NCBI GenBank assembly: GCA_023379265.1
Contig: JAMCUI010000009.1
Location: forward strand, 100,091-164,090
Reading direction: 5' to 3'
DNA length: 64,000 bases
Source: Patescibacteria group bacterium
GTDB taxonomy: Bacteria; Patescibacteriota; Microgenomatia; 2-02-FULL-39-11
Numbering within the stretch: the stretch's first letter is position 1; each line of letters opens with the position of its first letter. Below are positions 1 through 21,226 of this stretch, piece by piece. A program made the translations under genes and the position numbers. The notes under the pieces were generated by a model. That model saw only the letters and a program-made list of their open reading frames with translations, was not told the DNA's origin and did no database searches.

Positions 1-752
1 TATTCCATATTTAGAGTGGATGAAAGTGATAGAACTGTGGTGGGGTAATTTGACGTGCTGCCGCTGGCTACATAAAAGCCTTTATTTTTGAGATAAGATG
101 TAAAGTCGGCATCGTCAAAGGAAAAGTATTTTGAAAGGTTGGCGGGTGCAGAATAACTGTCGGGGACAATATAGTAGACATCCGGTAGACCGGCTGGAGT
201 TTCTTTTACGTTTGGCAGTGTCAGGTGGCTTGTTTCTGTAGGATACATCCTTTGGGCCAGTTGGTAATTTACTATGCCAAAAGAAGTAAAAACTACCATA
301 AGAAGACCAATAAGAAGAAACGATTTATTCAGTGCCAACAGTTTTTTTTGTGTCCGTCTGAGAAGAATAAATATTACAATATATGTTAACGTCAATACTA
401 GGATTAATACATGATTCTTACCGATAACAGCTGGTCCCAAAATGAAAGAGAATTCCCCGAAAGCGTTCCAGATAGCACCGTATGTGAAAAAGAGAATCAT
501 AAACACAGAAGCAAAAATATCTCCTTTTCTTCTTTCCTTCATGACAAATCTGGCCGGGTAAGATAGTAGAAGAGCAAAAAGGATGCATACTCCAAGTGGA
601 ATAAATAGGCGGTTAAGAGTGAGTTCGCCTATGTTGTGAAGGAAAAGTGAGAGCACTGCAGAAGCCGCAAAAAATACAGGCGAAAAAGGAAAATAAGAAA
701 TTGCCAATCGGCACACCCTTTTTGCGTTTAGGATGGGATTTTTCAAAGTCAT
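1..752 (-). CDS. Partial (5' part only; start codon at 752..750, gene continues past the window start) multi-TM membrane protein with an extracytoplasmic alkaline-phosphatase-superfamily (LtaS/sulfatase-like) domain
   Basis: My own minus-strand translation (not in the ORF track because it runs off the window edge): MTLKNPILNAKRV... Four or five hydrophobic helices precede ...DVYYIVPDSYSAP...ASGSTSNYPTT, which resembles the start of LtaS/EptA-type sulfatase-fold domains and the paralogous motif in the 11081..12700 protein. Confidence 0.5.
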   Translation of the reverse strand, partial: MTLKNPILNAKRVCRLAISYFPFSPVFFAASAVLSLFLHNIGELTLNRLFIPLGVCILFALLLSYPARFVMKERRKGDIFASVFMILFFTYGAIWNAFGEFSFILGPAVIGKNHVLILVLTLTYIVIFILLRRTQKKLLALNKSFLLIGLLMVVFTSFGIVNYQLAQRMYPTETSHLTLPNVKETPAGLPDVYYIVPDSYSAPANLSKYFSFDDADFTSYLKNKGFYVASGSTSNYPTTVLSLSSTLNME

Positions 753-910
753 GTCGAAAAGTGAAATTTGAAAAATTTTATGATAACTCCTTGAGAAAAA
801 GCTGAAAAGAGATATTTATATTATAAAAGAAAATTTGTCTAGGGTTCTGATCAATTCCAGATTGTAAGAAGATGTAATTATACACATTTTTTGGTAAAAT
901 CCATATATAT

Positions 911-981
911 TGCGGGATCGTATAACGGTAGTACGCATCCCTCTGGAGGATGTTATCTTGGTTCGAATCCAAGTCCCGCAG
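911..981 (+). tRNA. tRNA-Gln (anticodon CUG)
   Basis: Hand-folded cloverleaf. Acceptor TGCGGGA/TCCCGCA (U1-A72), U8, D-stem GTAT/GTAC with loop AACGGTA, anticodon stem CATCC/GGATG, loop CTCTGGA (U33, anticodon CTG, purine 37), variable TTAT, T-stem CTTGG/CCAAG with loop TTCGAAT, discriminator G73. CCA is not encoded. U1-A72 and G73 are classical tRNA-Gln identity elements. Confidence 0.8.
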
Positions 982-1132
982 CAAGATTGGACACCCAGCG
1001 ACCGTAAGCTCTAAAAAAGCCCGATTCTGCTTGCTAAGTGTTATTTTATTTTAGGAAGTCTTGGACCGTACCCTTGTTATTTAGCAGTCATTTTTACCCT
1101 CGAAGATATGATCTTTAGATCGTGAATGTGGT

Positions 1133-4562: not shown

Positions 4563-4841
4563 TTATTTTTTATAAAGATTAATAACTTGGGACAATTTTT
4601 CCTTTTGTTCTTTGGAAAGCCCTTCTCCACCATTTAATATTTGATGGACGATACTGCCTTCCAAAGTTTTGCTTCTTAAAGCATCGAATGATTTGGCAAT
4701 TGAGGTAACTAACATAGCAATTCCCATGCAATCGGCATCATCTGCTATATATCTTTTAAGTGTTTCAATCTGACCTTGTATGCGGTTAAGGTGATCTAAA
4801 GTCCGTTCCCGTCTGTTTTTAATTTTCGTATTAATTTTCAT
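4563..4841 (-). CDS. Metal/stress-sensing transcriptional repressor of the CsoR/RcnR/FrmR family (DUF156)
   Basis: 92 aa. LNRIQGQIETLKRYI...DCMGIAMLVTSIAKSFDALRSKTLEGSIVHQIL matches the RIEGQ...C...A..AL...H core of the family. Cys and His are at the expected positions, but Asn replaces the second Cys of CsoR. First gene of the ABC operon. Confidence 0.6.
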   Translation of the reverse strand: MKINTKIKNRRERTLDHLNRIQGQIETLKRYIADDADCMGIAMLVTSIAKSFDALRSKTLEGSIVHQILNGGEGLSKEQKEKLSQVINLYKK

Positions 4842-4844
4842 ATG

Positions 4845-4868
4845 TATATACCCCCACCCCTATATAAT
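4845..4868 (-). promoter_or_regulatory. Candidate operator/promoter element: TATATA-CCCCCACCCC-TATATAAT immediately upstream of the CsoR-family gene
   Basis: A 10-nt C-tract (G-tract on the coding strand) flanked by TATA-rich hexamers, 4-27 nt upstream of the start codon. Resembles GC-core/AT-flank CsoR operators. See the finding for this site. Confidence 0.3.
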
Positions 4869-4939
4869 ATACTCTTTTTTCTGAGTAAATGCTGAAACGA
4901 GTAAAGGAGGCAAATTCGCTTGCTTAAATTTGTTACAAT

Positions 4940-5278
4940 ATGGATAGTCAAACTATGAAACTTGCCATTATTCTTTCAACTAACAACGCAGAAAAAAACT
5001 GGAACGCATTTAGACTAGGCAACTTAGCTTTAAAAAGTGGTGATAACGTAAGCGTATTCCTTATCGGTGAGGGTGTTGAATACTTACAATTTACTAGTGA
5101 CAAATTTGACATCCAAAAACAGGTTGATGCATTTCTTAAATCAAGAAATGGAGAAATTTTAGCCTGTGAGACGTGTATGGATCTTCGGCATCAAGAAGGT
5201 AATAAAACCTGTCCGGTAAGCGGAATGAAAGAACTGTATAATTTGATAAAAGAGAGTGATAAGGTAGTTACTTTTTAA
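4940..5278 (+). CDS. DsrE/DsrF-like family small protein (sulfur-relay/peroxiredoxin-like fold)
   Basis: 112 aa. KLAIILSTNNAEKNWNAFRLGNLALKSGDNVSVFLIGEGV... with conserved Cys residues (ACETCMD, KTCP). Confidence 0.45.
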   Translation: MDSQTMKLAIILSTNNAEKNWNAFRLGNLALKSGDNVSVFLIGEGVEYLQFTSDKFDIQKQVDAFLKSRNGEILACETCMDLRHQEGNKTCPVSGMKELYNLIKESDKVVTF

Positions 5279-5282
5279 TCGT

Positions 5283-5978
5283 ATGAAAAAGCTACTGTTT
5301 GGCCTAAGCACATTATTGATCTTAGGGATTGTCTTTTCTTCTTCTGTATCAGCCCAAGGGATGATGAACTGGGGTAATACTTCCAGCGCAACTCCCTCCT
5401 CAGTGACTTCAACTGCTCAGGATGAAAGTAAAGGAAGACAACTATGGGATCAACTGCAAGCAAAACAAGTGACTTGTGAGAGTTTAAAAGATGACGATTT
5501 TGAAGTATTAGGTGAATACTTTATGGGTCAGTCTGTCGGTAATACGGAAAGACATGCCGTTATGAACCAAATGATGCAGAATATGATGGGTCAAAACGGA
5601 GAAGAGCAAATGCACATATCGCTTGGTAAAAGATCAAGTAGTTGTGATACCAATGTTTCGTTTCCTTCAGGATACGGATTACCTATGATGTGGTGGATGA
5701 TGGGAGGAGGTGGAAATCCTATGATGGGATATGGCGGCTGGAATAACTGGGGTAATATGATGGGTTGGGGAGGTTTTGGCTTCGGCTGGATATTTATGAT
5801 TATCTTTTGGACTCTTATTATTCTAGGTGTCGTTGCTTTAGTCCGATACTTAGGAGGTACCAGACAAAACAATACAATAGATAGAGCTAATCCGCCTTTG
5901 GACATTCTCAAAGAGCGTTATGCCAAAGGAGAAATCAACAAGAAAGAGTTTGAGGAAATGAAAAAGGACTTGAGATAG
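5283..5978 (+). CDS. Secreted/membrane protein with Met/Gly/Trp-rich low-complexity region, one TM helix and C-terminal SHOCT domain
   Basis: Signal peptide MKKLLFGLSTLLILGIVFSSSVSAQG. Met-rich stretches MNQMMQNMMGQNGEEQMH and MMWWMMGGGGNPMMGYGGWNNWGNMMGWGG. TM helix IFMIIFWTLIILGVVALV. C-terminus DILKERYAKGEINKKEFEEMKKDL is SHOCT-like. Confidence 0.55.
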   Translation: MKKLLFGLSTLLILGIVFSSSVSAQGMMNWGNTSSATPSSVTSTAQDESKGRQLWDQLQAKQVTCESLKDDDFEVLGEYFMGQSVGNTERHAVMNQMMQNMMGQNGEEQMHISLGKRSSSCDTNVSFPSGYGLPMMWWMMGGGGNPMMGYGGWNNWGNMMGWGGFGFGWIFMIIFWTLIILGVVALVRYLGGTRQNNTIDRANPPLDILKERYAKGEINKKEFEEMKKDLR

Positions 5979-5995
5979 GGTAAACTTGAAAAGAA

Positions 5996-6568
5996 ATGAA
6001 AACCAGAGAAAGCGGTATGCCAGATGAAAAGATGTGGGATACTTTTTTTGATCCGGATACCATTTTGGATAGTTTAGGCATAAAAAATCTCACAGGAAAT
6101 ATAGCTGATTTTGGTTGCGGATACGGAACATTTACTATTCCGGCAGCAAAAAGAACAAAAGGTAAGGTATATGCACTTGATATTGAAAAAGAGATGGTAC
6201 AAATAACACAGGAGAAGGCAAAGCAATCAGGTTTAAATAATGTAGTAGCAATTCAAAAGGATTTTATGACCGGTGGTACAGGACTCGCCGACTCATCCTG
6301 TGACATAGTTTTGCTTTTTAATATTCTTCATGCAGAAAATCCGTTAAATATATTGGTTGAATCAAAAAGAATTCTCACTTCAGGAGGAGCAGTAGCTATA
6401 ATTCACTGGATTCCTGATCCTACAACTCCCCGCGGACCACCGATGAGCATTCGTCCGCATCCTGAAGAAATTCAAAATTGGTTGAAAGAAGCAGGTTATA
6501 AATTAAAAAACACGATAATTCCACTTCCTCCATATCATTATGGTTTATTGGGGAAAAAGACTGATTAA
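5996..6568 (+). CDS. Class I SAM-dependent methyltransferase
   Basis: Motif I DFGCGYGTFTIPAA, acidic motif II VYALDIEKEM, post-I region. Confidence 0.75.
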   Translation: MKTRESGMPDEKMWDTFFDPDTILDSLGIKNLTGNIADFGCGYGTFTIPAAKRTKGKVYALDIEKEMVQITQEKAKQSGLNNVVAIQKDFMTGGTGLADSSCDIVLLFNILHAENPLNILVESKRILTSGGAVAIIHWIPDPTTPRGPPMSIRPHPEEIQNWLKEAGYKLKNTIIPLPPYHYGLLGKKTD

Positions 6569-6634
6569 GTGATAGAATAAGTAACTTTTTAATAGTCGTA
6601 TTGAAATAAACTAGGTTATCTCATTTAAATTTCC

Positions 6635-7246
6635 ATGCCAGAAAAACTTCATAAAAAAGCACTGTTGCTTTCTTATTTTACCGTTGTTTATAACATTATA
6701 GAGGGAATCCTCTCCATATTTGTTGGAGCAAGTACAGGGAGCATTTCCCTGGTTGGATTTGGTCTGGACAGTTTCATAGAAAGTCTATCGGGCAGTATCT
6801 TAATATGGAGATTTACTAAAAGCAGTCATATATCAAACAGTCACACTGATGAAACTGAACAAAAAGCCATACGGCTTATCTCATATACCTTTTTTATCCT
6901 AGGAGGGTATGTTTTATATGAGTCTATTACCAAACTCCTTAGACAGGAATCTCCAACACAAAGCGTCTTTGGCATAATTATTGCTGTCGTTTCAATCATG
7001 GTAATGATTGGTCTATATAAAAATAAAATCAACTTTGGCATGAAAAATCATATTAGAAGTATAGTTGCTGATTCCAGGCAAACTCTTGCTTGCATATGGA
7101 TGTCAATCACAATGCTTTTCGGTCTTGGTCTTCATTATATGTTTGGAATTTGGTGGAGTGATGCTGTTGCAGGAATAGTAATCTCGATGTTTCTGTTTAA
7201 GGAAGGATATAATACTTATCGAGAAAAGAAGTTATGCAGTTGTTGA
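6635..7246 (+). CDS. Cation-diffusion-facilitator-like membrane protein (transmembrane domain only)
   Basis: 203 aa with about 6 TM segments. N-terminus KKALLLSYFTVVYNIIEGILSIFVGASTGSISLVGFGLDSFIESLSGS resembles CDF TM1-TM2. No cytoplasmic C-terminal domain. Tentative call. Confidence 0.4.
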   Translation: MPEKLHKKALLLSYFTVVYNIIEGILSIFVGASTGSISLVGFGLDSFIESLSGSILIWRFTKSSHISNSHTDETEQKAIRLISYTFFILGGYVLYESITKLLRQESPTQSVFGIIIAVVSIMVMIGLYKNKINFGMKNHIRSIVADSRQTLACIWMSITMLFGLGLHYMFGIWWSDAVAGIVISMFLFKEGYNTYREKKLCSC

Positions 7247-7626: not shown

Positions 7627-8925
7627 TCAATTAATTCCAGATAAGTTAAGCTTTATATACCCACTGGGAATTGTTTTCCAACGTACTACATCTTTTATAT
7701 TTGTTAATGTCACTGATCCAAATACAGCAGCAATAACAGCGGCAATTCCTCCGATTCCCAATCCCCATCTAGGTCCAATATGTTGGCCGATCCAACCAAT
7801 CAAAGGTCCTCCGATAGAGGTTGACCCCAAAAAGGCCATAGTCCAGTATGCCATTATTCTGCCCCTCATCTCAGGAATGCACTCCAATTGTAAAATCGTA
7901 TTTCCCAGTGATTGGAACGAAATATAGAAAAATCCTACAAACAGGATGGCAACAATTGTAAGAGTAACCGTGGGCATCATTGCAGAAATGAGAGTGGATA
8001 TTCCGAAGAACAGTGCTGATATTACCATCATCCAACTTTCCATCCGTCTTTGACCAGCCAAATATATTCCTCCAATTATTGCTCCTATCCCTTGTGCTGC
8101 AGTCAGCGAGGCATAAGTGCTTGCACTTCCGTGAAATGTAAAGTCGACAATTAACGGGAGACTAACCTGGAACTCATAGGTGAGCGTTCCAATAATTGCC
8201 ATCATGATAATCGAATTGCGTATAATAGGATTTGCTATTATATATCGCATTCCATCAAATAACTGGTTTTTTACTTCTCTGGCTGATTTTGCCGCTTGAA
8301 CAAAGTATACTTTCTCAACCTTAATAAATATAAGTGCCAACAGTATTCCTGTATAGGAAAATGCATTTACAATAAAGCACACACCTATGCCTTTTGTCGC
8401 TATCAAGATTCCAGCAAGGGCAGGACCTACGACACGTGATATGTTGACTAGAATACTAAATAACGATAGGGCGTTTTTAAGTTTTTCCTTTCCAACCATT
8501 TCACCTACAAACACTTGTCTGGTAGGGTTATCGATCATATTCACCACCCCATATGAGAAAGCAAGTACGGCAACTATCCACACTTTGACTGATCCGGTTA
8601 AAACTAAATATCCTAATAGTAACGACTGGAGTGCGAAAATTGACTGTGTTATAAAGATCAGTTTACGCTTGTCATAGCGATCTGAAATCAATCCTCCAAA
8701 GGGAGCAAAAAGAAGTATTGGTACAAACTGCATGGCTGTCGTTATTCCCAAAGCAATGCCTGAATGGGTCAGCTTCAGTATCAACCATGCTTGAGCAACA
8801 GTTTGCATGTATGTTCCGGGAGTGGATATCAGTTGCCCCAAATAATATAAACGGTAATTTCTATTTGAGAGCGAAGTCAAAAACCATCGGAAATATCCTC
8901 TGAATGGAATCATTACTTTGTACAT
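7627..8925 (-). CDS. MFS transporter, MFS_3/EntS-like family (12 TM)
   Basis: 432 aa. ...YMQTVAQAWLILKLTHSG...GGLISDRYDKRKL... About 60% identical paralog of 18796..20076. Confidence 0.8.
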   Translation of the reverse strand: MYKVMIPFRGYFRWFLTSLSNRNYRLYYLGQLISTPGTYMQTVAQAWLILKLTHSGIALGITTAMQFVPILLFAPFGGLISDRYDKRKLIFITQSIFALQSLLLGYLVLTGSVKVWIVAVLAFSYGVVNMIDNPTRQVFVGEMVGKEKLKNALSLFSILVNISRVVGPALAGILIATKGIGVCFIVNAFSYTGILLALIFIKVEKVYFVQAAKSAREVKNQLFDGMRYIIANPIIRNSIIMMAIIGTLTYEFQVSLPLIVDFTFHGSASTYASLTAAQGIGAIIGGIYLAGQRRMESWMMVISALFFGISTLISAMMPTVTLTIVAILFVGFFYISFQSLGNTILQLECIPEMRGRIMAYWTMAFLGSTSIGGPLIGWIGQHIGPRWGLGIGGIAAVIAAVFGSVTLTNIKDVVRWKTIPSGYIKLNLSGIN

Positions 8926-9108
8926 ATCCCTGTATATTATCGGTATCAGATGAAGTAATTATGAAGGTGTGGAAGTCGGAAAGGACCTAAATTTCAGCAG
9001 ACTATATCCCCTAAATTCAAAAAATAATAGCGGCCGTGCTTAAAACCTTTTCAAAATGAATTTAATATTTTACTTTATAAACAAAAGTGAACATTATATT
9101 ATAGGGTA

Positions 9109-10920
9109 ATGATGGATTCTCAACCTGATTTAAAAAATCCTGGTAATCCACCCGAGAATGGCTCACAATTTTCAACAGTGGCATCAGTAAAACCTACCGT
9201 TCCATCAGAGACAGATCATCTTGCTGATTTAAAGCGTATCAGAGGATGGCGTACTCCGGATAGTACTCCATTTGCAATTAAAGTATCACTTCTCCCACAA
9301 GACAAAGAAGCCATGCAAGAAGGTGAAGAAGCTGTCGATGGAAACAGAAATGTTCAGCAAACTTTCGTAAGGATGTCAAAACAGATGTGTGACATAGCAG
9401 GTGATGTGATAGCTGAATATCCCGGAACATATGAACAACTGAAAGCAGCGTTTCCTAAATATACATATGAACAACTATTACCCCTTTTGGAATCTTTCAA
9501 GAGAAAAGAAAGTCCTGCTAATTACCCCGATATAAATGTGGTTAGGAACCATAATCTTAAAAGTCTATTACATAAACTACACGATTACCCTATTTATCGC
9601 CAGACATACGGGTCGCCAGAGTATTTTATATTTGAGGATCCCGAAGAAGTTGTCCCAAATTTGGCAGATTCTCTTGATGTAGGGCATGCGCCGGTAGGGC
9701 CTCTGATGGTAGTAAGTTATCCCATTACCGCTTTGGAATATGGTTGGGTGAGAGGAAAAAAGTATCCTCCACTTAAAGGGCATATTTATCAATATATTTA
9801 TATGAATGCTGGGGAAAAAAGATCAAAGACCGGAACCGTGTACCCAGATGTGGTGAAAGCCGTACGTACAGTCAGGTTATGGGATGATGGGTCAGAAGTA
9901 GAACTTGAGAAATTAGAAGCTGATGTTGAAAAACGCAGTGGATATCGTCGTCCAAAACCTCGAGAACATATTCCATTGATTACAGATGCTGATGCATGGG
10001 CTGCCCAATCCAATAGAGAAGGCCTTTTCCAAGCCCCTTTCCGTTCATATTTGATTCCTGATGTGTCACTTCAGGGTCCGCACCGTATGGATTATCGAAG
10101 AGAATCGTTAAACCTTGCAAAGGGTTCCGCATTCGAACAATTAGTTCTAATTACGATAGCATATAATAATGCATTTTCTCCAGTAGATTCTCGCGTTTAT
10201 CCACAATATCAACTTGCAGACAGATTTCAAGGTGCTTCAGCACAATCTGTACGCGCTGATGGTTATTGGATTGATGCTTCCGGTCAGGAAAATGTCGTAG
10301 AAGTGAAATACGGTCGTGCTGTAGAAAAGACTATTAAATCCGTTGAAAGAGAGAAAAAACAGCTTCAAAGAGAACCAAACGCCAAAATCAAGTATCACCT
10401 GGTGACGCTTAATGCTGGACCGGGGCATATTCCGGAAGAATATAAACCGTTCCATGAACCATACAGAAAGTTGATAGAAATAATAGACGATTCAGATGTA
10501 AAAAGAAATCTCGGGATACTTTCTGATTGGATTATAAAAATATCCGTAAGTAAAGATCCGTCATTCGGGACGATATTAAAGAGAGTGCGTACATTTTTGT
10601 TCAACGTTTTGGATCAGGCTAATCATCTTACTGCTGCGGTCCGTCAGGAATATATAAAAAGGACATTAACAAAATGTATGGAATTGTATGAAAAAAGAGA
10701 TTATAAGGGCTGGCAAGAATTTATGGCCCAATTTTCTCTGGTATCTTTCAAAGATAATGAGTATGAAGAGACATATCGCGGACATGATGGTGAAATGCAT
10801 CGAGGTATGCTAAAAAAAGAATCGATTAAGGAAGAAGTCGATAACAATGGGAATGATAACAATGAATATCAACCATCCATTGAGCAAGTTGAATCTATAA
10901 CTTTAGATGATAAACTATAA
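9109..10920 (+). CDS. Large cytoplasmic hypothetical protein (603 aa) with a candidate PD-(D/E)xK nuclease-like core in its C-terminal half
   Basis: Long open frame with no TM or signal peptide. Region ...AFEQLVLITIAYNN...ADGYWIDASGQENVVEVKYGRAVEK fits helix-E / strand-D / hydrophobic-hydrophobic-E-x-K. I recognise no other domain. Confidence 0.6.
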   Translation: MMDSQPDLKNPGNPPENGSQFSTVASVKPTVPSETDHLADLKRIRGWRTPDSTPFAIKVSLLPQDKEAMQEGEEAVDGNRNVQQTFVRMSKQMCDIAGDVIAEYPGTYEQLKAAFPKYTYEQLLPLLESFKRKESPANYPDINVVRNHNLKSLLHKLHDYPIYRQTYGSPEYFIFEDPEEVVPNLADSLDVGHAPVGPLMVVSYPITALEYGWVRGKKYPPLKGHIYQYIYMNAGEKRSKTGTVYPDVVKAVRTVRLWDDGSEVELEKLEADVEKRSGYRRPKPREHIPLITDADAWAAQSNREGLFQAPFRSYLIPDVSLQGPHRMDYRRESLNLAKGSAFEQLVLITIAYNNAFSPVDSRVYPQYQLADRFQGASAQSVRADGYWIDASGQENVVEVKYGRAVEKTIKSVEREKKQLQREPNAKIKYHLVTLNAGPGHIPEEYKPFHEPYRKLIEIIDDSDVKRNLGILSDWIIKISVSKDPSFGTILKRVRTFLFNVLDQANHLTAAVRQEYIKRTLTKCMELYEKRDYKGWQEFMAQFSLVSFKDNEYEETYRGHDGEMHRGMLKKESIKEEVDNNGNDNNEYQPSIEQVESITLDDKL

Positions 10921-11080: not shown

Positions 11081-12700
11081 ATGAAAATATTTCCACGGGT
11101 GAGACCAAACCTTCGTACATTTTTTGTTACTTCCGGTCTAATCATATCAGGAATTATTCTGTTTGCACTACTTAAAATATACGGCCAGTTCTTAGTCTTC
11201 TGGATATTCGGAAAGCCCAAATGTGACAAATGTAATATTATTGTCATTGAAGCAGATGTTCTTGGGTCTAATCATCTTCCGTGTTATGGATACTATAGAA
11301 ATACCGCACCTAATCTTTGTACTTTTGCCAAAGAGAACGTATTCTTTTCACATTCATATTCTCAAGGACCACAAACAACCTCCAGTACCTTTTCTCTTTT
11401 TACCTCACTTTACCCAGTCAATCATGGGATTAATATACCATACGAGAAAAGTATCCTTAACGATAAATATCTCACTCTAACACAAGCACTTAAAGCCCAA
11501 GGGTACAATACTATCTATGTGGGACCTTCTATCCCACAGGTTCCGCTTGACCGCGGAATAGAGCGAGGTTTTGACGATATAATCATTACCCCGTCCAATA
11601 TCAGTGACAATCCTGACATTATGACTTGGTGGAAAAAAGGATTGCAGAAAGTAGTGGAAAATACGCAAAATGGTAAAAAAACCTTTCTTTTTATATATAC
11701 AGACTATTTGCACGATCCTTATTTAGTAGGAAATAAAAAATTGCTTTACGCATCTAACCGTTATTCTAATTTCGCCATAACCGATAAAGAACTTAATACA
11801 TTAACACCGGAAATTCTAAATTACTACCTGACCTCTGTGAGTGAACGGATAAACGGAGGAACAAAAGAAGGTTACACAAGCGGCGACCTAAATTTGTATA
11901 AGCAGTTAAAGGAAGCAAAAAATTTTGACCAGGCAAAAAAGATATTCTTCAGCTATCCAACGATTGAAAGAAATCATGCGCTTCTCTATTTTAATTATTA
12001 TTTACGAATAAATCCCAAAGATAACAATGTCGTTAAGTATTTAGCCGCGCTTTATGATGAAAAAATAAACATGTTTGATAAAGATATGGGGTCCTTTTTT
12101 AAGTATCTTGGAGAAAATGATTTGAAAAGGAAATCGATCTTTATATTAACCTCAGCTCACGCAGAGGAGTTTATGGAACATGGAGATTGGGGTCATAAAA
12201 ATAAATTATTTAATACTAATTTGACTATACCTTTTATAATGTCTATTCCTACAATAAGTAACCGACATATCAATGATCTTATCCAAAATATCGACCTATA
12301 CCCAACACTGCTTGGATTAATTGGTGTTGAAAAGCCAAGTTATCTTCAGGGAATAGATTTAAGCGATTTAATATATGGATTACCCGATGCCAAGAAGGAA
12401 AATTATGTTATCAGCCAAATTCCTTATGCTGATCCACCTTTGGCTTCAATTTCTGATGGTCAATGGAAATTAATTGTGAACACCAAGATAAATAAAGCTA
12501 TTAGTCTCTTTAATCTGGTAACTGACGCTAAAGAACAGAAAAATGTCGCCGACAACAATCCAGAAATTACTGACCGACTACTTCAGGAATTGGACAAAAT
12601 TATGAATAATAAAAATACGAAACCAATTAAAAAATTCAACTTTCCTGACTGGATCAATGATGAAGAGAGAAGAAAGATAATTAAAGAAGGCTATTTTTAA
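11081..12700 (+). CDS. Membrane-anchored alkaline-phosphatase-superfamily (sulfatase/LtaS-like) protein
   Basis: 539 aa. N-terminal TM FFVTSGLIISGIILFALL, then IVIEADVLGSNHLPCYGYYRNTAPNL...SQGPQTTSSTF..., typical of the metal-site and nucleophile region of the sulfatase fold. Confidence 0.55.
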   Translation: MKIFPRVRPNLRTFFVTSGLIISGIILFALLKIYGQFLVFWIFGKPKCDKCNIIVIEADVLGSNHLPCYGYYRNTAPNLCTFAKENVFFSHSYSQGPQTTSSTFSLFTSLYPVNHGINIPYEKSILNDKYLTLTQALKAQGYNTIYVGPSIPQVPLDRGIERGFDDIIITPSNISDNPDIMTWWKKGLQKVVENTQNGKKTFLFIYTDYLHDPYLVGNKKLLYASNRYSNFAITDKELNTLTPEILNYYLTSVSERINGGTKEGYTSGDLNLYKQLKEAKNFDQAKKIFFSYPTIERNHALLYFNYYLRINPKDNNVVKYLAALYDEKINMFDKDMGSFFKYLGENDLKRKSIFILTSAHAEEFMEHGDWGHKNKLFNTNLTIPFIMSIPTISNRHINDLIQNIDLYPTLLGLIGVEKPSYLQGIDLSDLIYGLPDAKKENYVISQIPYADPPLASISDGQWKLIVNTKINKAISLFNLVTDAKEQKNVADNNPEITDRLLQELDKIMNNKNTKPIKKFNFPDWINDEERRKIIKEGYF

Positions 12701-12814
12701 TATTTAATGACGCTTCACGTAATACAGTTCCCACTTGTTTTACTCACTATTTATAAATAACCCACAGGGTGATATGACCGGGATGTCCAGAGGATTTTTA
12801 CCCAGTATCCTCAC

Positions 12815-14758
12815 TCAGACCTGTCCTCTAAACTGGCTATTATAGAGATCGGCGTAGAAGCCATTTTTTGCTAAAAGTCCTTTATGGGTGCCTTTCTCGA
12901 TGATTGTTCCGTGGTTCATGACAAGGATAAGGTCCGCGTCGCGGATAGTAGAGAGTCTGTGGGCAATTACGAAATTCGTTCGGCCCTTCATGAGCTTGTT
13001 CATGGCATTTTGGATAAGAAGCTCGGTTCTGGTATCCACACTGCTGGTTGCCTCATCCAAAATAAGAATTTCCGGATCAGCCAGGAACGCGCGTGCTATG
13101 GTTAAAAGCTGCTTCTGGCCTTGAGAGATATTTGTTGCATCCTCGTTGAGAACCATGTTGTAGCCTTCCGGTAGCGTCCTTATAAAGTGGTCGGCATATG
13201 CCGCTTGTGCTGCTCGTACAATTTCTTCTTCTATCGCGTTTTCGCGGCCATATGCAATATTATCGCGGAGTGTTCCATGGAAAAGCCATGTATCCTGCAA
13301 TACCATGCCGAACATGCGGCGCAGGTCGCCGCGTTTGAGCTTTGTAATGTCAATGCCGTCAATTAGTATATTGCCGCTGTTTACTTCATAGAAGCGCATC
13401 AGTAGATTGACAAGAGTTGTCTTACCGGCCCCGGTTGGACCGACAATTGCTATCATTTGGCCGGGTTTCACAACAAAATTCATATTCTCCATAAGAATCT
13501 TATCTTTACTATATCCAAAACGGACATGCCGGAATTCGACTGCACCTTTGGGAGTATTAATTGTCAAAGGTTTTACCGTTTCAGGCACTTGTTCCTCTTC
13601 GTCTAAAAGTTCAAATATGCGTTCTGCTGAGGCTATGGCTGACTGGATCACGTTTGCAATATTTGCAAGCATGGTGATTGGTTGGCTAAACTGGGCTGAA
13701 TATTGGATAAATGCCTGAACGTCACCGATGGAAATTGCGCCTTGTGTTGTCATAATTCCTCCCACTACTGCCACTAATACATAACCTATATTCCCGACGA
13801 ACCGCATGAGCGGCATGAGAATGCCTGAGACATATTGTGCCTTCCAACCGGCATCATAAAGTTTGTCGTTGAGGTAGTCAAACCGTTCGATAGCTTTTCT
13901 CTCGTGTCCAAATGCTTTGACGATCTTGTGTCCCGTATACATCTCTTCGATGTGGCCATTGAGATCACCAAGGCTGCTTTGCTGCTTTCTGAAATAATCT
14001 TGTGAACGTTTAGCAATACCCGTAACAATAAACAGACTCATTGGAATGGTTGCCAACACAATCAGGGTCAACACCACGCTTATTGAAAGCATCATTACCA
14101 GTACGCCTACAAGAGTGACTGCGGAGGTAATGAGTTGCGTTACGCTCTGTTGAAGGGTGGAGCTGATATTATCCATGTCATTGACCGCGCGACTGAGGAT
14201 CTCGCCGTGTGTGCGTCCGTCGAAATATTTCAGGGGTAACCGTGAAAGTTTTTCGTCTACTTCTTTTCGGAGTTTATAGATAGTTCTTTGTGCTACACCG
14301 GCCATCAGGTACTGTTGTATAAATATGAAAATCGCGCTGACAATATACAGCCCAAGCAAAATTACCATAACTCTGCCTATATAACCGAATTCGATACCGG
14401 GTACCGGGGCAATTTGTATAGAGAGTGTTGGGTTTTGCAGTAATTCTTTTCTTATAATTTGATTTCTTGCTTGTACGATGAAACTTGCAATCAGGTTGTC
14501 AAAAAGCTTGGTTGTTGCCAGACCCAGAATCTTCGGGCCAACGATATTAAACACCGTTCCCAAGACTGCTGCCGCTACCACGATTGACAAAAGGAATTTT
14601 TCCGGAACAAAATACTGAAGCAGCCTCCTGAGTGTACCTCGGAAGTCCTTGGCTTTCTCGACGGGTCTGCCCATGGCTCCCCAGCCACCCCGACCCATTG
14701 GGCCATGGCCCATACCGCTTTGACTAGTTTGGTTTTTAGCGTTATTACTTGGACTCAT
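12815..14758 (-). CDS. ABC exporter, fused TMD-NBD (type I exporter half-transporter)
   Basis: 647 aa. 6-TM domain, Walker A GPTGAGKTT, signature ISQGQKQLLTIARAF, Walker B ILILDEATS. Confidence 0.9.
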   Translation of the reverse strand: MSPSNNAKNQTSQSGMGHGPMGRGGWGAMGRPVEKAKDFRGTLRRLLQYFVPEKFLLSIVVAAAVLGTVFNIVGPKILGLATTKLFDNLIASFIVQARNQIIRKELLQNPTLSIQIAPVPGIEFGYIGRVMVILLGLYIVSAIFIFIQQYLMAGVAQRTIYKLRKEVDEKLSRLPLKYFDGRTHGEILSRAVNDMDNISSTLQQSVTQLITSAVTLVGVLVMMLSISVVLTLIVLATIPMSLFIVTGIAKRSQDYFRKQQSSLGDLNGHIEEMYTGHKIVKAFGHERKAIERFDYLNDKLYDAGWKAQYVSGILMPLMRFVGNIGYVLVAVVGGIMTTQGAISIGDVQAFIQYSAQFSQPITMLANIANVIQSAIASAERIFELLDEEEQVPETVKPLTINTPKGAVEFRHVRFGYSKDKILMENMNFVVKPGQMIAIVGPTGAGKTTLVNLLMRFYEVNSGNILIDGIDITKLKRGDLRRMFGMVLQDTWLFHGTLRDNIAYGRENAIEEEIVRAAQAAYADHFIRTLPEGYNMVLNEDATNISQGQKQLLTIARAFLADPEILILDEATSSVDTRTELLIQNAMNKLMKGRTNFVIAHRLSTIRDADLILVMNHGTIIEKGTHKGLLAKNGFYADLYNSQFRGQV

Positions 14759-16509
14759 ACAGTTTCTTTCTCAATTTCCGTCGCTGACAGTTGTGAAGTC
14801 ACAATTGCGCGATAGACATCGCAGGTTTTCATAAGTTTCGTGTGAGTACCGATACCTACAACTCGTCCCTCATCAAGGACAATAATCTGATTGGCGTCAA
14901 TCACTGTGCTGACCCGCTGGGCGACAATGATTACTGTAGCATTGCGAGTCTCTCCTTTGAGAGCGGCACGCAATTTAGCGTCAGTCTTAAAGTCAAGCGC
15001 CGAGAAAGTATCGTCAAATACGTAAATTTCCGGTTTTCTCACCAGGGCTCTGGCAATTGAGATACGTTGCATCTGCCCACCAGAAACATTTGTCCCACCT
15101 TGGGCAATCATCGAATTAAAACCTTCAGGCATTTTGGTAATAAATTCACTGGCCTGTGCCACATCAGCCGCGTGTTTTATTTCTGCTTCTGTTGCATTTT
15201 CGTGGCCAAAACGAAGATTCTCGTTCACAGTTCCTGCGAACAATACAGCCTTTTGAGGAACAAAACCGATTTTTTCACGTAAATAGTCCTGTGACATTTG
15301 TCTAATCTCAACTCCATCAACGAGTATCCGGCCGCTGTTTACATCATAAAAACGCGGAATAAGGTTAACTAGGGTAGACTTGCCAGCACCGGTGCCGCCT
15401 ATGATGGCGGTTACATTACCGGGAGAGGCACGAAATGAGATGTTATAAAGTGCCGGTTTTTCCGCTCCATGATAACTAAAAGTGACATTTTGAAATTCGA
15501 CAAAGCCGCGAAGTTTATCGGCTTTCTTCACTTCTTTAAGGTCGTTGATTTCAGGTTCCATGGCCAAAACTTCGTTGATTCTGGTGGCAGAGGCTTCCGC
15601 ACGCGGGATCATAATAAACATAAGCGCTACCATCAGGAGTGAAAAGAGAATCTGGAAAGCATATTGCAGGAAAGCAAACATCGCACCGATTTCCAAATGC
15701 CCGCCAGTGACGCGCAGACTGCCAAACCATATTATGGCCACACTGGAAAGATTTATAAGAAGCATCATTACTGGCATCATTGTCGCCAACATCTGGTTGA
15801 CTTTAATTGCGATACTTGTTACGTCGCGGTTGGCTTCATCAAAACGCTGTTCTTCATGCTTGATCCGATTAAAAGCCCTCACCACTCGGACTCCAGTTAA
15901 GTTTTCATCCAAAATAAGGTTTAGTTTATCCAGTTTTACCTGCATGATAGAGAAAAGAGGTACTGCCTTGACAAGGAGTATCAGAATAACAATAACGAGG
16001 ATTGGCATGACCGCAACCAGAATCCATGAGAGCCCTACATCCTGGTTTAGGGCAAGAATAATGCCAACAATCAGCGTGATTGGAGCAGTGATTAACATAT
16101 TCAGGATCATAACCATCACCTGTTGGATCTGTACCGTATCATTGGAGGTACGGGTGATAAGAGATGCAGTGCTGACTATGTCAAACTCATGCAGCGAAAA
16201 CTGTTGAATCCTGTAGAAAATCTCAGCGCGGATAACTTTCACCATACCCGTCGCAACCTGGGATGAAAAATATATGCCTACCACAGCGCATAGTGTGCCT
16301 GCAATTGCCACTATGGCCATAAGTCCTCCGGTTCTCCAAATGTAGTCGGTGTCGAATGTTGAAATACCTTTATTTACGATATCTGCCATCAAGTTTGGCA
16401 AATACAGGTTTGCCACAGACTGTCCGACAGCAAGTGCAAGGATAAGCGCTAGGAGAATCCGGTAGGGTTTTAAGAAACGTAATAGTTTAATCATTGCAAA
16501 TTGACACAA
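14755..16509 (-). CDS. ABC exporter, fused TMD-NBD (partner half-transporter)
   Basis: 584 aa. Walker A GGTGAGKST, signature VSGGQMQRISIARAL, Walker B YVFDDTFSALD. 4-nt overlap with the partner gene. Confidence 0.9.
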   Translation of the reverse strand: MCQFAMIKLLRFLKPYRILLALILALAVGQSVANLYLPNLMADIVNKGISTFDTDYIWRTGGLMAIVAIAGTLCAVVGIYFSSQVATGMVKVIRAEIFYRIQQFSLHEFDIVSTASLITRTSNDTVQIQQVMVMILNMLITAPITLIVGIILALNQDVGLSWILVAVMPILVIVILILLVKAVPLFSIMQVKLDKLNLILDENLTGVRVVRAFNRIKHEEQRFDEANRDVTSIAIKVNQMLATMMPVMMLLINLSSVAIIWFGSLRVTGGHLEIGAMFAFLQYAFQILFSLLMVALMFIMIPRAEASATRINEVLAMEPEINDLKEVKKADKLRGFVEFQNVTFSYHGAEKPALYNISFRASPGNVTAIIGGTGAGKSTLVNLIPRFYDVNSGRILVDGVEIRQMSQDYLREKIGFVPQKAVLFAGTVNENLRFGHENATEAEIKHAADVAQASEFITKMPEGFNSMIAQGGTNVSGGQMQRISIARALVRKPEIYVFDDTFSALDFKTDAKLRAALKGETRNATVIIVAQRVSTVIDANQIIVLDEGRVVGIGTHTKLMKTCDVYRAIVTSQLSATEIEKETV

Positions 16510-18795: not shown

Positions 18796-20076
18796 ATGCC
18801 TGCTCTTACTTCTTTTATTAAGGAAACATTTTCCTCACTAGAGGTTCGCAATTACCGACTTTATTTTATCGGTCAGGCAATCTCAGTTTCGGGCACTTTC
18901 ATGCAGTCGGTAGCCCAGGCATGGCTTGTCCTCAAAATTACTAATTCCGGTACGGCGCTTGGTCTGGTCACCGCTTTGCAGTTTTTACCGATTCTCATAT
19001 TCGGGCCATGGGGAGGGGTGGTAGCTGACCGGTACGATAAACGTAAGCTGCTTCTTATTACACAAATAATTTTCGGCGTACAGGCTTTGATTTTGGGATT
19101 TCTGGTAATTACCGGATTAGTACAGCTGTGGATGGTAGGGGTTTTGGCGTTTATTTACGGAATAATAAACGTTGTCGACAATCCGGTACGCCAGACGTTT
19201 GTTCCGGAGATGGTAGGCAATGAAAGGCTCAGGAATGCTGTTACACTTTACAGCAGTCTGGTGAATCTGGCGCGGGTGATCGGACCTATTTTAGCCGCGG
19301 TATTTATTGCAAGCGTGGGGCTGGGTATGTGCTTTATCATAAACGGTATTTCCTACACGGCCATTATCATATTTTTGCTTGCCATGGATGTGACGAAACT
19401 TCATGTTACCAACCAGTTGGTAAAGAAAGGCGGCCAGATGATTGAAGGATTGCGTTATATCTTAAAAACAGCGCATCTTAGGAATACTCTTTTGATGATG
19501 GCGCTGATCGGTACGTTGACATATGAATTCCAGGTGAGTCTGCCTCTTTTGGCTGAGTTTACTTTTCATGGGGATGCGGGAACATACGCATTTCTCATGT
19601 CCGCACAGGGAGTAGGCTCAATTATCGGCGGGGTGCTTTTGGCCGGGCAAAAAAATATATCCGTCAAAGCCCTGACTTTTGCAGCTCTTTTTTTTGGTGT
19701 TTCCACACTCTTTGCGTCATTTATGCCGGGATTAGTATTGACGGCTATTTTTATTTTCATAGTTGGTTTCTTTTCCATTTACTTCCTGTCCCTGGGAAAT
19801 ACAATTCTCCAATTGGGAAGCGATCCGGCGATGAGAGGCAGGGTGATGGCATACTGGTCGATGGCCTTTTTGGGCTCGACAGCCATAGGCGGACCCATTG
19901 TTGGCTGGGTAGGAGAGTATGCAGGTCCCCGTTGGGGATTGGGGATTGGGGGACTGGCAGCAATTGCCGCATCATTTATAGGATTTATTGCCATAAAAGA
20001 TATGCACAGAAAAATATCGGAAGAAGCTATGACTCAGGCTGAATTGGCAGAAGGGGAAGAGAAAAGAGTCATGTGA
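18796..20076 (+). CDS. MFS transporter, MFS_3/EntS-like family (paralog of 7627..8925)
   Basis: 426 aa. ...FMQSVAQAWLVLKITNSG...GGVVADRYDKRKL... Confidence 0.8.
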   Translation: MPALTSFIKETFSSLEVRNYRLYFIGQAISVSGTFMQSVAQAWLVLKITNSGTALGLVTALQFLPILIFGPWGGVVADRYDKRKLLLITQIIFGVQALILGFLVITGLVQLWMVGVLAFIYGIINVVDNPVRQTFVPEMVGNERLRNAVTLYSSLVNLARVIGPILAAVFIASVGLGMCFIINGISYTAIIIFLLAMDVTKLHVTNQLVKKGGQMIEGLRYILKTAHLRNTLLMMALIGTLTYEFQVSLPLLAEFTFHGDAGTYAFLMSAQGVGSIIGGVLLAGQKNISVKALTFAALFFGVSTLFASFMPGLVLTAIFIFIVGFFSIYFLSLGNTILQLGSDPAMRGRVMAYWSMAFLGSTAIGGPIVGWVGEYAGPRWGLGIGGLAAIAASFIGFIAIKDMHRKISEEAMTQAELAEGEEKRVM

Positions 20077-20137
20077 ACAGAGTATAATATCCTAGATATG
20101 GAACTTTATAAATTTGATATGATAAATTATCCCGATT

Positions 20138-20326
20138 ATGCCTGATGAAGAATTCAGCCACACTGTATCAGAGGCTTTCCAAAAAGGAAAAAAAGATCCG
20201 TATTCAGGGTTGCGTAAACGGATAACAGAAGAAGGAGCAAAACTCTGGCTGGATACTCTAAACAAACAAAAAGCAGGGGAGATTCCTCCGAACCGATATG
20301 GACCGGATCCGAAAAAAGTAAAATGA
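20138..20326 (+). CDS. Small basic hypothetical protein (62 aa)
   Basis: Open frame only. No recognisable motif. Confidence 0.25.
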   Translation: MPDEEFSHTVSEAFQKGKKDPYSGLRKRITEEGAKLWLDTLNKQKAGEIPPNRYGPDPKKVK

Positions 20327-20356
20327 CTCCATCCACTACTTTGGTATAATTAGACT

Positions 20357-21226
20357 GTGAATTATTCTCCAAAAGAAAATAATACTTTTAGGTTGCGCGA
20401 TGGCAGGGTATTGGGATATGCACAGTATGGGGATCCGAAGGGGAAACCTGTTTTCTTCTTTCATGGTTGGCCAGGATCCCGTTTCTCAGGAAAAGAAACA
20501 GATGATGCTGGGAAAAAAATCGGCGCAAGAATTATTTCCACTGACAGGCCTGGAATAGGGTTATCTACTTACAAAAAAGACAGGAAACTACTGGACTGGC
20601 CGGATGATGTAGTAGAGTTAGCAGATCACATGAAAATAAAAAAGTTTTCCCTGGTGGGAGTCTCAGGCGGCGGACCTTATGTTGCCGTATGTGCATATAA
20701 AATTCCAGAAAGGATAATAAAAGCAGGAATTGTGGTGGGGTTGGCACCGGTGGATGTGAAGGGAAATCTTGACGGGATGGCTTTACAAAGCCAGTTAGGG
20801 TTTGGTAACTATCATAAGTTTCCTCTTCTTCGTACTCTGGCTGCATTTGGGGCGGCGCTACAGTTTGCATATTTTCCTCTTCTTGGACAATTAGCTTTTC
20901 CTACCAAAGAAGACAAACAGTTATTTAACAAGTCTGTCAGAGAGGGAAGAGGAGAAGGAGACGGGATAAAAGGAGCATTCCGTCAGGGCATAAGAGGCCC
21001 GGAACTGGAGCTGAAAATATATACTGATGATTGGGGATTTAAAGTAAAGGATATAAAAGCAAAAGTCTATCTCTGGTATGGAGCGAAAGACAAATGCGTC
21101 TCCATAAATATGGGCAAGTATTACAATTTACATATAAAAGGAAGTAAGTTATTTATAGATCCTGATGGAGTACATCTGTCCAGGTATAAATTTGAAGAAA
21201 AAATACTGAAAAAGTTGATTGATTAA
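20357..21226 (+). CDS. Alpha/beta-hydrolase fold protein
   Basis: HGWPGS oxyanion region. Nucleophile elbow GVSGGG. The GTG start lies about 6 nt after a TATAAT, so likely leaderless. Confidence 0.7.
   Translation: MNYSPKENNTFRLRDGRVLGYAQYGDPKGKPVFFFHGWPGSRFSGKETDDAGKKIGARIISTDRPGIGLSTYKKDRKLLDWPDDVVELADHMKIKKFSLVGVSGGGPYVAVCAYKIPERIIKAGIVVGLAPVDVKGNLDGMALQSQLGFGNYHKFPLLRTLAAFGAALQFAYFPLLGQLAFPTKEDKQLFNKSVREGRGEGDGIKGAFRQGIRGPELELKIYTDDWGFKVKDIKAKVYLWYGAKDKCVSINMGKYYNLHIKGSKLFIDPDGVHLSRYKFEEKILKKLID

What the first reader, a model, noticed from the sequence alone, without database searches (positions are those of the whole stretch)
9109..10920. Orphan 603-aa cytoplasmic protein with a PD-(D/E)xK-like nuclease core, inside an efflux cassette bracketed by inverted MFS paralogs
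I recognise nothing in the N-terminal ~330 residues. The C-terminal half contains, in the canonical order, a helix with Glu (AFEQLVLITIAYNN), a strand with Asp (ADGYWIDASG) and a hydrophobic-hydrophobic-E-x-K strand (NVVEVKYGR). This is the restriction-endonuclease-like PD-(D/E)xK signature.
A large uncharacterised nuclease-fold protein encoded alone, next to an LtaS/sulfatase-like membrane enzyme, is the sort of context in which standalone defence or nucleic-acid-processing proteins are found. It could be an undescribed system.
Basis: inference. Interest (0 to 1): 0.6.

Follow-up and report, generated by a model that had tools for sequence, protein, structure and literature searches.

The report
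Rare nuclease-like protein in tiny bacteria
This gene encodes a real 603-residue protein whose back half belongs to a very rare, undescribed family from ultra-small bacteria and archaea with a strictly conserved DNA-cutting-enzyme signature; nothing shows it is a defence system or works with the neighbouring gene.

Summary
The ORF 9109-10920 (+), 603 aa, and all three quoted motifs are present. The surroundings are also as described.

The protein matches no model in Pfam, NCBIfam, PADLOC, PHROGs or PDB sequences. It is not a full orphan. An exhaustive phmmer search and contig scans found about 25 distant relatives (25-35% identity). They come from Patescibacteria/Peribacteria and at least one Altiarchaeota MAG, and they match only aa ~311-580. 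Residues 1-310 have no relative anywhere.

Across 18 divergent members, K338, G339, E343, Q344, P365, Q366, D389, E398, K400 and G402 are invariant. This is the E...D...ExK order of PD-(D/E)xK nucleases. The conserved Asp is D389, not D384.

An AlphaFold model built on the family alignment (pLDDT 66) places helix, ExK strand, helix and strand where that fold needs them, followed by a confident helical bundle. The first two strands are unresolved. Foldseek gives no significant hit, though PD-(D/E)xK enzymes make up 14 of the top 50.

No neighbour is conserved among homologs, none lies beside a sulfatase, and there is no defence-model hit.

Verdict: probably a new PD-(D/E)xK-type nuclease family with swappable N-terminal modules. 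The fold is not proven and the biological role is unknown. Interest is moderate.

The parts
9109..10920 (+). Complete ORF, 603 aa plus stop codon. It is identical to 'MAG: hypothetical protein M1366_00840 [Patescibacteria group bacterium]'.
8926..9108 (+). 183-bp AT-rich intergenic region shared with the divergent MFS gene. It holds one weak sigma-70-like match (9074-9102) and is the presumed promoter region.
   Evidence: consensus match only; inferred
9109..10038 (+). N-terminal region, aa 1-310. It has no homolog in 1.84 billion representative proteins, no internal repeats, no family match, and a low-confidence, partly helical model. It stays open for about 310 codons in a 38% GC genome, so it is coding.
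10039..10848 (+). Conserved family domain, aa ~311-580. It begins at the 'FRxY...P' motif. This is the only part shared with the ~25 relatives.
10108..10407 (+). Nuclease-like core, aa 334-433.
- Helix a1: aa 334-353.
- Presumed strands b1 and b2: aa ~362-392. This stretch includes a query-specific insertion and is low confidence.
- Strand b3: aa 395-400.
- Helix a2: aa 405-421.
- Strand b4: aa 428-433.
10135..10137 (+). Codon of E343, the invariant Glu of helix a1. K338, G339 and Q344 beside it are also invariant.
10273..10275 (+). Codon of D389, the invariant Asp and presumed metal ligand on strand b2.
10300..10308 (+). Codons of E398-V399-K400, the invariant ExK on strand b3. G402 follows and is also invariant.
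10435..10728 (+). Helical bundle, aa 443-540. It is the most confident part of the model (pLDDT 72-94 per 10-residue block). It carries the invariant residues L490, D502, N505 and R512.
10762..10815 (+). Beta-hairpin, aa 552-569. It matches the family motif 'LEAHFEYxGxLYRGFI'. E554 is invariant.
10834..10917 (+). Acidic, Asn-rich tail, aa 576-603. It is not conserved and is predicted to be disordered.

Best explanation
The gene encodes a soluble, modular nuclease.

The C-terminal ~270 residues are the catalytic module of a rare, previously undescribed family. Its core is of the PD-(D/E)xK (restriction-endonuclease-like) type:
- Helix a1 carries E343.
- A beta-hairpin carries D389 and E398-x-K400.
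- Helix a2 and strand b4 follow.
- A family-specific four-to-five-helix bundle and a beta-hairpin come after the core.

By analogy with the superfamily, D389 and E398 (helped by E343) would hold one or two Mg2+ ions at the scissile phosphate, and K400 would position or activate the attacking water. The substrate is most likely DNA.

The N-terminal part is the exchangeable targeting or regulatory module. Some relatives carry 2-8 tandem ~72-residue repeats with helix-hairpin-helix-like signals. Peribacteria relatives carry other repeats. This protein has a unique 310-residue region.

Shown: the ORF, the family, the invariant residues, the module boundaries, and the absence of a conserved partner gene.

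Inferred: the fold of the first two strands, catalysis, DNA as substrate, and the role of the N-terminus. The cellular role is open: repair or recombination, restriction-like defence, or DNA scavenging.
For: - Family. Eleven distant relatives with E 1e-9 to 9e-4 all align to aa ~324-578. Thirteen related loci came from genome and metagenome scans; some repeat organisms already in hand. A profile built without the seven new members scores them at E 1e-43 to 1e-79.
- Invariant residues in 17-18 members at 25-35% identity: K338, G339, E343, Q344, P365, Q366, L369, D389, E398, K400, G402 and Y429. The order and spacing fit PD-(D/E)xK enzymes. The nine-residue gap from D389 to E398 lies within the range known for the superfamily (established knowledge).
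- Model. The AlphaFold2 model on the 12-sequence alignment has pTM 0.67. It shows helix 334-353, strand 395-400 (ExK), helix 405-421 and strand 428-433, then a confident helical bundle.
- Fold hits. Fourteen of the top 50 Foldseek PDB hits are PD-(D/E)xK enzymes from four families: XPF/Mus81, EndoMS/NucS, BamHI and the HerA-associated DUF nuclease. An ERCC4-domain protein also appears among the viral hits.
- PHROGs. The only family hit by more than one member is phrog_29037, 'endonuclease' (2 of 12, best E 0.0015).
- Repeats. Repeat-bearing relatives give HhH-type weak hits: DNA_pol_lambd_f at 32 bits against a cut-off of 29.8, and the NusA C-terminal repeat. This fits a nucleic-acid substrate.
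- No transmembrane segment or signal peptide.
Against: - No statistically significant match to any known nuclease. This covers Pfam, NCBIfam, PADLOC and PDB sequences, by single sequence, consensus and profile.
- The best Foldseek E-value is about 0.1, with TM-scores below 0.3.
- hhalign against Hjc and NucS gives probabilities below 1%. A control between those two true superfamily members reached only 2.6%, so this test had almost no power.
- Strands b1 and b2, which carry D389, fall in the low-confidence part of the model (pLDDT < 50 for aa 366-392).
- The loose motif occurs by chance in 30% of shuffles.
- No biochemical data exist.
Confidence: 0.55

Rival explanations
1. The protein is a standalone restriction-like defence nuclease, similar in logic to Type IV (Mrr-like) enzymes. 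The variable N-terminal module would recognise foreign or modified DNA, and the conserved C-terminal nuclease would cut it. This refines the biological role of the best explanation.
For: - The architecture pairs a variable N-terminus with a conserved C-terminal nuclease-like core.
- The gene is single, with no conserved partner.
- The distribution is patchy and crosses domains, in CPR bacteria and an Altiarchaeota MAG, which suggests horizontal transfer.
- One member sits beside a TraG/HerA-like ATPase and one beside an SNF2 helicase.
- A sibling MAG carries CBASS genes about 8 kb upstream.
Against: - No PADLOC hit for the query or for 11 homologs.
- No Mrr_cat or other restriction-enzyme Pfam hit.
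- Homologs lie among amino-acid, glycolysis, tRNA-modification and purine genes, not in defence islands.
- No DNA methyltransferase lies nearby.
- The CBASS genes are absent from this window, and in the sibling MAG they are separated from the gene by transporter and metal-resistance genes.
Confidence: 0.15
2. The protein is a housekeeping or salvage nuclease of ultra-small symbionts. It would act in DNA repair or recombination, or degrade imported host DNA for nucleotide supply. This is also a refinement of the best explanation's biological role.
For: - Homolog neighbourhoods are housekeeping.
- The gene is single copy in the window.
- All taxonomically assignable members come from reduced-genome lineages: Patescibacteria, Peribacteria and Altiarchaeota.
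- HhH-like repeats in relatives point to binding DNA without sequence specificity.
Against: - The family is extremely rare: 12 clusters among 1.84 billion representatives and 3 hits among 185,579 species genomes. A core function would not be this rare.
- The N-termini are not conserved.
Confidence: 0.2
3. The conserved domain is not a nuclease. The E/D/ExK pattern would be coincidental or serve another purpose, such as metal or ligand binding, in a fold unrelated to restriction endonucleases.
For: - No significant sequence, profile or fold match to any nuclease.
- The key hairpin is unresolved in the model.
- The loose motif is common by chance.
- More than half of the conserved domain is a helical bundle with its own invariant residues D502, N505 and R512.
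Against: - All four signature residues, plus the flanking G402, are invariant at 25-35% overall identity.
- The confident helix-strand-helix-strand elements are in the right places.
- Weak fold and PHROG hits lean towards nucleases and not towards any other class.
Confidence: 0.25
4. The protein works together with the downstream sulfatase-family membrane enzyme, or with the efflux genes, as one functional cassette.
For: - The two genes are on the same strand, 160 bp apart, with no terminator-like site between them on that strand.
- The arrangement is identical in three assemblies of the same organism.
Against: - None of the roughly 10 independent homolog loci has a sulfatase, MFS or ABC exporter neighbour that is shared across loci.
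- The three assemblies are the same strain at 99.97% identity, so they add no independent support.
Confidence: 0.04
5. The protein is a secreted nuclease toxin or effector of a polymorphic toxin type, delivered to the host cell of the episymbiont.
For: - Carrier lineages are episymbionts (established knowledge).
- The proteins are large and modular with repeat regions.
- Restriction-endonuclease-fold toxin domains are known in polymorphic toxins (established knowledge).
Against: - No signal peptide or recognised secretion domain.
- The conserved part is the C-terminal 'toxin' and the variable part is the N-terminus. This is the reverse of polymorphic toxins.
- No conserved small downstream gene that could encode immunity.
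Confidence: 0.04

Closest known systems
PD-(D/E)xK (restriction-endonuclease-like) phosphodiesterase superfamily, e.g. NucS/EndoMS, archaeal Hjc, XPF/Mus81
   Same: - A Glu on the first helix, an Asp on the next-to-last core strand, and hydrophobic-hydrophobic-E-x-K on the following strand. All are invariant in the family.
- The helix, strand, helix, strand elements lie in the expected order.
- These enzymes dominate the weak fold hits.
   Different: - No significant sequence, profile or fold match to any member family.
- The family has its own 'KGxAFEQ' and 'PQYCL' signatures.
- About 150 residues of helical bundle and hairpin extension are as conserved as the core.
Type IV restriction enzymes of the Mrr type (DNA-reading N-terminal domain plus C-terminal Mrr_cat nuclease)
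   Same: - A single gene with a variable N-terminal module and a C-terminal nuclease-like core.
- The first helix has an 'FExL' motif resembling the Mrr_cat helix (resemblance recalled from memory, not tested).
   Different: - No Pfam Mrr_cat hit for any member, even at E <= 10.
- No PADLOC hit.
- The gap from the helix Glu to the Asp is longer.
- The context is not a defence island.
Cap4 / DUF4297-type defence nucleases (PD-(D/E)xK core followed by a helical or sensor domain; partner of HerA or CBASS)
   Same: - A nuclease-like core followed by a helical domain.
- The HerA-DUF assembly (9c1m_G) has the highest query-normalised TM-score in the PDB list, 0.28.
- One family member (L019) is next to a HerA/TraG-like ATPase.
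   Different: - The score is not significant.
- There are no PADLOC matches.
- The ATPase neighbour is seen once only.
- There is no SAVED or other sensor domain.
- The CBASS genes of the sibling MAG are 8 kb away and absent from this window.
Restriction-endonuclease-fold toxin domains of polymorphic toxin systems
   Same: A nuclease-type C-terminal domain on a long modular protein with repeats, found in organisms that live attached to other cells.
   Different: - The conserved and variable parts are reversed.
- There are no secretion or trafficking domains.
- No conserved gene lies downstream that could encode immunity.

Membership tests
PD-(D/E)xK nuclease superfamily | Catalytic signature: an Asp on strand b2 and (D/E)-x-K on strand b3, conserved across the family | tested here: met
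   D389 and E398-x-K400 are invariant in 12, 17 and 18-sequence alignments at 25-35% identity. The ExK lies on a predicted strand.
PD-(D/E)xK nuclease superfamily | Conserved acidic residue on the first core helix | tested here: met
   E343 is invariant and lies in the predicted helix 334-353, where pLDDT is about 80.
PD-(D/E)xK nuclease superfamily | Alpha-beta-beta-beta-alpha-beta core fold: a four-stranded mixed sheet between two helices | tested here: inconclusive
PD-(D/E)xK nuclease superfamily | Detectable sequence or profile relationship to an existing member family | tested here: not met
   - No hits in Pfam, NCBIfam, PADLOC or PDB sequences by single sequence, consensus or profile.
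- PHROGs gave only a weak 'endonuclease' hit: phrog_29037, 2 of 12 members, best E 0.0015.
- hhalign against Hjc and NucS gives probability below 1%. The Hjc-versus-NucS control gave only 2.6%, so the hhalign test lacked power.
PD-(D/E)xK nuclease superfamily | Divalent-metal-dependent phosphodiester cleavage | not testable with these tools
   Needs biochemistry.
Known anti-phage defence systems (PADLOC catalogue) | Match to a defence protein model | tested here: not met
   There are 0 families for the query. For 11 homologs there are only scattered single hits, each from one member (best E 7e-4).
Known anti-phage defence systems (PADLOC catalogue) | Conserved placement in defence islands or with partner genes | tested here: not met
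   Homolog neighbourhoods are housekeeping, and no gene is shared across independent loci. There are no relatives on viral contigs, phages or plasmids.
Type IV restriction enzymes (Mrr-like) | Mrr_cat-type catalytic domain (Pfam PF04471) | tested here: not met
   No hit for the query, 16 members or the family consensus, even at E <= 10.
Type IV restriction enzymes (Mrr-like) | Cleavage dependent on DNA modification | not testable with these tools
   Needs biochemistry.
   None of the homolog loci has a sulfatase-family neighbour.
Polymorphic toxin systems | N-terminal secretion or trafficking domain, variable C-terminal toxin, adjacent immunity gene | tested here: not met
   No signal peptide or secretion domain. 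The C-terminus is the conserved part. There is no conserved downstream gene.

The most novel reading that the evidence does not exclude
The conserved module may be the cleavage unit of a new class of modular nucleases restricted to ultra-small episymbionts (CPR bacteria and DPANN-type archaea). In this reading, exchangeable N-terminal modules direct cutting. Those modules are arrays of 2-8 repeats of 72 residues with variable loops in some members, and a unique 310-residue domain in this protein. This would be a natural 'array plus nuclease' design, or a new standalone restriction-like defence, possibly passed between the two domains of life.
Probability: 0.12. Interest if true: 0.65.

Novelty: new variant of a known kind. 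Interest (0 to 1): 0.35.

Why it matters
If the assignment holds, this adds a new family to the restriction-endonuclease-like superfamily. It is one of the rarest such families, with about 25 sequences among some 15 billion predicted proteins. It has a distinctive conserved helical extension and freely exchanged N-terminal modules.

The carriers that can be placed taxonomically are reduced-genome, host-dependent lineages, from both Bacteria and Archaea. That makes the family a candidate marker of gene exchange, or of a shared need such as DNA scavenging or conflict with hosts or viruses. The repeat-array relatives could be worth testing for DNA-recognition rules.

For this particular gene the practical gain is modest. 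It gives an orphan protein a testable catalytic hypothesis with four named residues. It also removes the suggested links to the sulfatase gene and the efflux cassette.

Tried and rejected
- Single-sequence AlphaFold of the full protein gave pLDDT 35 and was unusable.
- The word-index homolog search found only the query itself. With the family alignment it found nothing, not even known members.
- A seed from the NucS catalytic domain, meant to build a deep reference alignment, returned only 2 proteins. A scan of viral contigs for Hjc relatives returned 1 locus. No deep reference profiles could therefore be built.
- hhalign against shallow Hjc and NucS alignments gave no signal. A control between those two true relatives also failed, so the negative result is uninformative.
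- Profile searches of PDB sequences with the whole domain and with the core alone gave nothing.
- The family consensus against Pfam at E <= 10 gave only noise.
- tblastn of the consensus core and two members' domains against phages, and of the consensus core against plasmids, gave nothing or noise.
- A literature search returned only general CPR/DPANN papers.
- CBASS effector idea: rejected. The cyclase and E2 genes exist only in the sibling MAG, 8 kb away across a tRNA junction and unrelated genes, and no sensor domain is detectable.
- Shared repeats idea: rejected. The query N-terminus does not contain the repeats seen in relatives.
- Paralog idea: rejected. There is no second copy in the window.
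Full report
**Observation.** The window contains an ORF from the ATG at 9109 to the stop at 10918-10920 on the + strand. It encodes 603 aa, and the opposite strand is closed. The three quoted peptides start at aa 341, 383 and 395. The protein has no hydrophobic segment long enough for a membrane helix (best 19-residue Kyte-Doolittle mean is 1.2) and no signal-peptide-like start.

The context is as described:
- A divergent MFS gene lies at 7627-8925 (-).
- A sulfatase-family gene with a membrane anchor lies at 11081-12700 (+).
- Two ABC exporter genes, a MarR gene and two HlyD-like genes follow.
- A second MFS gene lies at 18796-20076 (+). It is 58% identical to the first and inverted relative to it.

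The ORF stays open for about 310 codons upstream of the first conserved residue. In a 38% GC genome this cannot be chance, so the N-terminal part is coding (direct inference).

The motif alone is weak evidence. A loose version of it occurs in 30% of shuffles of this sequence.

**Source.** The protein is identical to a hypothetical protein of a Patescibacteria MAG (GCA_023487465.1). The same protein is encoded in two Logan assemblies with the same neighbours. The window matches that MAG at 99.97% from position 979 onwards but differs to the left of it. The window therefore comes from a sibling assembly.

**Known families.** The query has no match in Pfam, PADLOC, PHROGs or PDB sequences, and only noise in NCBIfam.

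**Relatives.** The word-index search found only the query. The exhaustive phmmer search of 1.84 billion representatives found 11 distant relatives, with E from 1.5e-9 to 8.7e-4. Every one aligns only to aa ~324-578.

Pattern scans added three loci from species genomes: one Candidatus Altiarchaeota MAG and two Candidatus Peribacteria MAGs. They added ten more loci from metagenomes and none from viral contigs. A profile built from the first 12 sequences scores the new, independent members at E 1e-43 to 1e-79. The family is therefore real, but it is tiny.

None of the relatives has a Pfam, NCBIfam or PADLOC assignment in the shared region. The N-terminal 310 residues of the query match nothing, including the N-termini of the relatives. 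They contain no internal repeats.

**Conservation.** In alignments of 12, 17 and 18 members sharing 25-35% identity with the query, the invariant positions in the core are as follows:

| Residues | Presumed element |
|---|---|
| K338, G339, E343, Q344 | first helix |
| P365, Q366, L369 | first strand |
| D389 | second strand |
| E398, K400, G402 | third strand |
| Y429 | fourth strand |

This is the Glu...Asp...Glu-x-Lys arrangement of PD-(D/E)xK nucleases. The conserved Asp is D389, not D384. The gap of nine residues to E398 lies inside the range seen in characterised enzymes (established knowledge).

Further invariant residues lie in the helical part and the hairpin: L490, D502, N505, R512, E554 and E576. 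The conserved unit is therefore larger than a minimal nuclease core.

**Structure.** A single-sequence model was useless, with pLDDT 35. With the 12-sequence alignment the domain model reached pLDDT 66 and pTM 0.67. Its elements are:
- helix 334-353;
- strand 395-400, which carries ExK;
- helix 405-421;
- strand 428-433;
- a confident helical bundle, aa 443-540 (pLDDT per 10-residue block 72-94);
- a hairpin, aa 552-569.

Residues 366-392 have pLDDT below 50. The first two strands should lie there, and the query has an insertion there that the relatives lack.

Profile comparison with shallow Hjc and NucS alignments gave nothing. The same test between Hjc and NucS themselves reached only 2.6% probability, so it had no power. 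Attempts to build deep reference alignments failed.

In PHROGs, the only family hit by more than one member is annotated 'endonuclease' (2 of 12 members, best E 0.0015).

**Architecture of relatives.** Many relatives carry 2-8 tandem repeats of about 72 residues ahead of the conserved domain. This group includes the Altiarchaeota protein. The repeats are 43-59% identical within a protein and have two variable loops. They give weak helix-hairpin-helix-type hits: DNA polymerase lambda fingers at 32 bits, and the NusA C-terminal repeat. This fits a nucleic-acid substrate.

The Peribacteria members have different N-terminal repeats. The query has its own unique region. The family thus keeps the C-terminal module and swaps the N-terminal one.

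**Context.** Homolog neighbourhoods contain arginine and purine biosynthesis, glycolysis, tRNA-modification, GluRS and NUDIX genes. One locus has an SNF2 helicase next door and one has a TraG/HerA-like ATPase. An all-against-all comparison of neighbours found no gene shared across independent loci and no sulfatase.

The proposed link to the sulfatase gene rests only on same-strand adjacency within one strain. The window holds no second copy of the domain.

**Interpretation.** The best reading is a soluble, modular, metal-dependent nuclease. Its catalytic module would be a new PD-(D/E)xK-type family with a conserved helical extension, and its N-terminus would target or regulate it (confidence 0.55).

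The main rival is that the domain is not a nuclease at all (0.25).

Given a nuclease, the role could be:
- housekeeping or salvage (0.20);
- restriction-like defence (0.15);
- a partner of the sulfatase gene (0.04);
- a secreted toxin (0.04).

**Novelty and score.** The family is absent from all curated libraries searched and is extremely rare. Where taxonomy is known, it occurs in reduced-genome lineages of both domains.

If the fold assignment holds, it is a new variant within a very large and well-known superfamily. Specialists would find that unsurprising. The exchangeable N-terminal arrays and the cross-domain distribution give it moderate interest. The defence-system reading is not supported by anything found here. 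Interest: 0.35.

Noticed in passing
window 1-982; L001 1-1870: The window and the sibling MAG contig (JAMDBJ010000004.1) are 99.97% identical from window position 979 onwards but unrelated to the left of it. The window has tRNA-Gln(CTG) at 911-982 there. The sibling has a CBASS-like pair instead: an oligonucleotide cyclase (PADLOC E 5e-47) and an E2-like protein (E 2e-32), with no tRNA. The junction lies at the 3' end of the tRNA. This suggests a strain-variable island at a tRNA site, or an assembly join.
   Followed up: partly
window 4563-7246: This looks like a metal-handling cluster. It contains a CsoR-type repressor, a DsrE-like protein and a SHOCT-domain protein with a striking Met/Gly/Trp-rich stretch (5283-5978; a possible Cu(I)-binding motif). 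A small SAM methyltransferase and a cation-diffusion-facilitator efflux protein complete it.
   Followed up: no
window 12500-16500 and 19000-20500: The ABC exporter pair and the second MFS gene have GC 0.43-0.46. The sulfatase gene and other flanks have 0.34-0.39. The efflux block may have a different origin from its surroundings.
   Followed up: no
P0003-P0011, L012, L014 (relatives; not in the window): Relatives carry 2-8 tandem ~72-residue repeats with the consensus LASALGVE...IAKALVERGFxSPExPDGHxI...YxxxEVVGEEQAExNLRKYVQxxYxTLDDV. The repeats are 43-59% identical within a protein and have two variable loops. Hits to helix-hairpin-helix families are weak. This repeat type is undescribed.
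   Followed up: partly
L009 5638-9068: In a Candidatus Peribacteria MAG, the family domain follows a 563-aa ORF made of different ~150-residue repeats. Only a run of N separates the two, so they are probably one large protein.
   Followed up: no
L019 2372-5080; L006 11249-14701: One family member lies directly upstream of a TraG/TrwB/HerA-like ATPase gene and another lies upstream of an SNF2-family helicase gene. Each arrangement was seen once only.
   Followed up: partly
L010 3212-4480: A repeat-bearing family member sits beside a bacterial-type GluRS (catalytic domain plus Anticodon_2). The repeat-bearing form may therefore not be confined to archaea.
   Followed up: no
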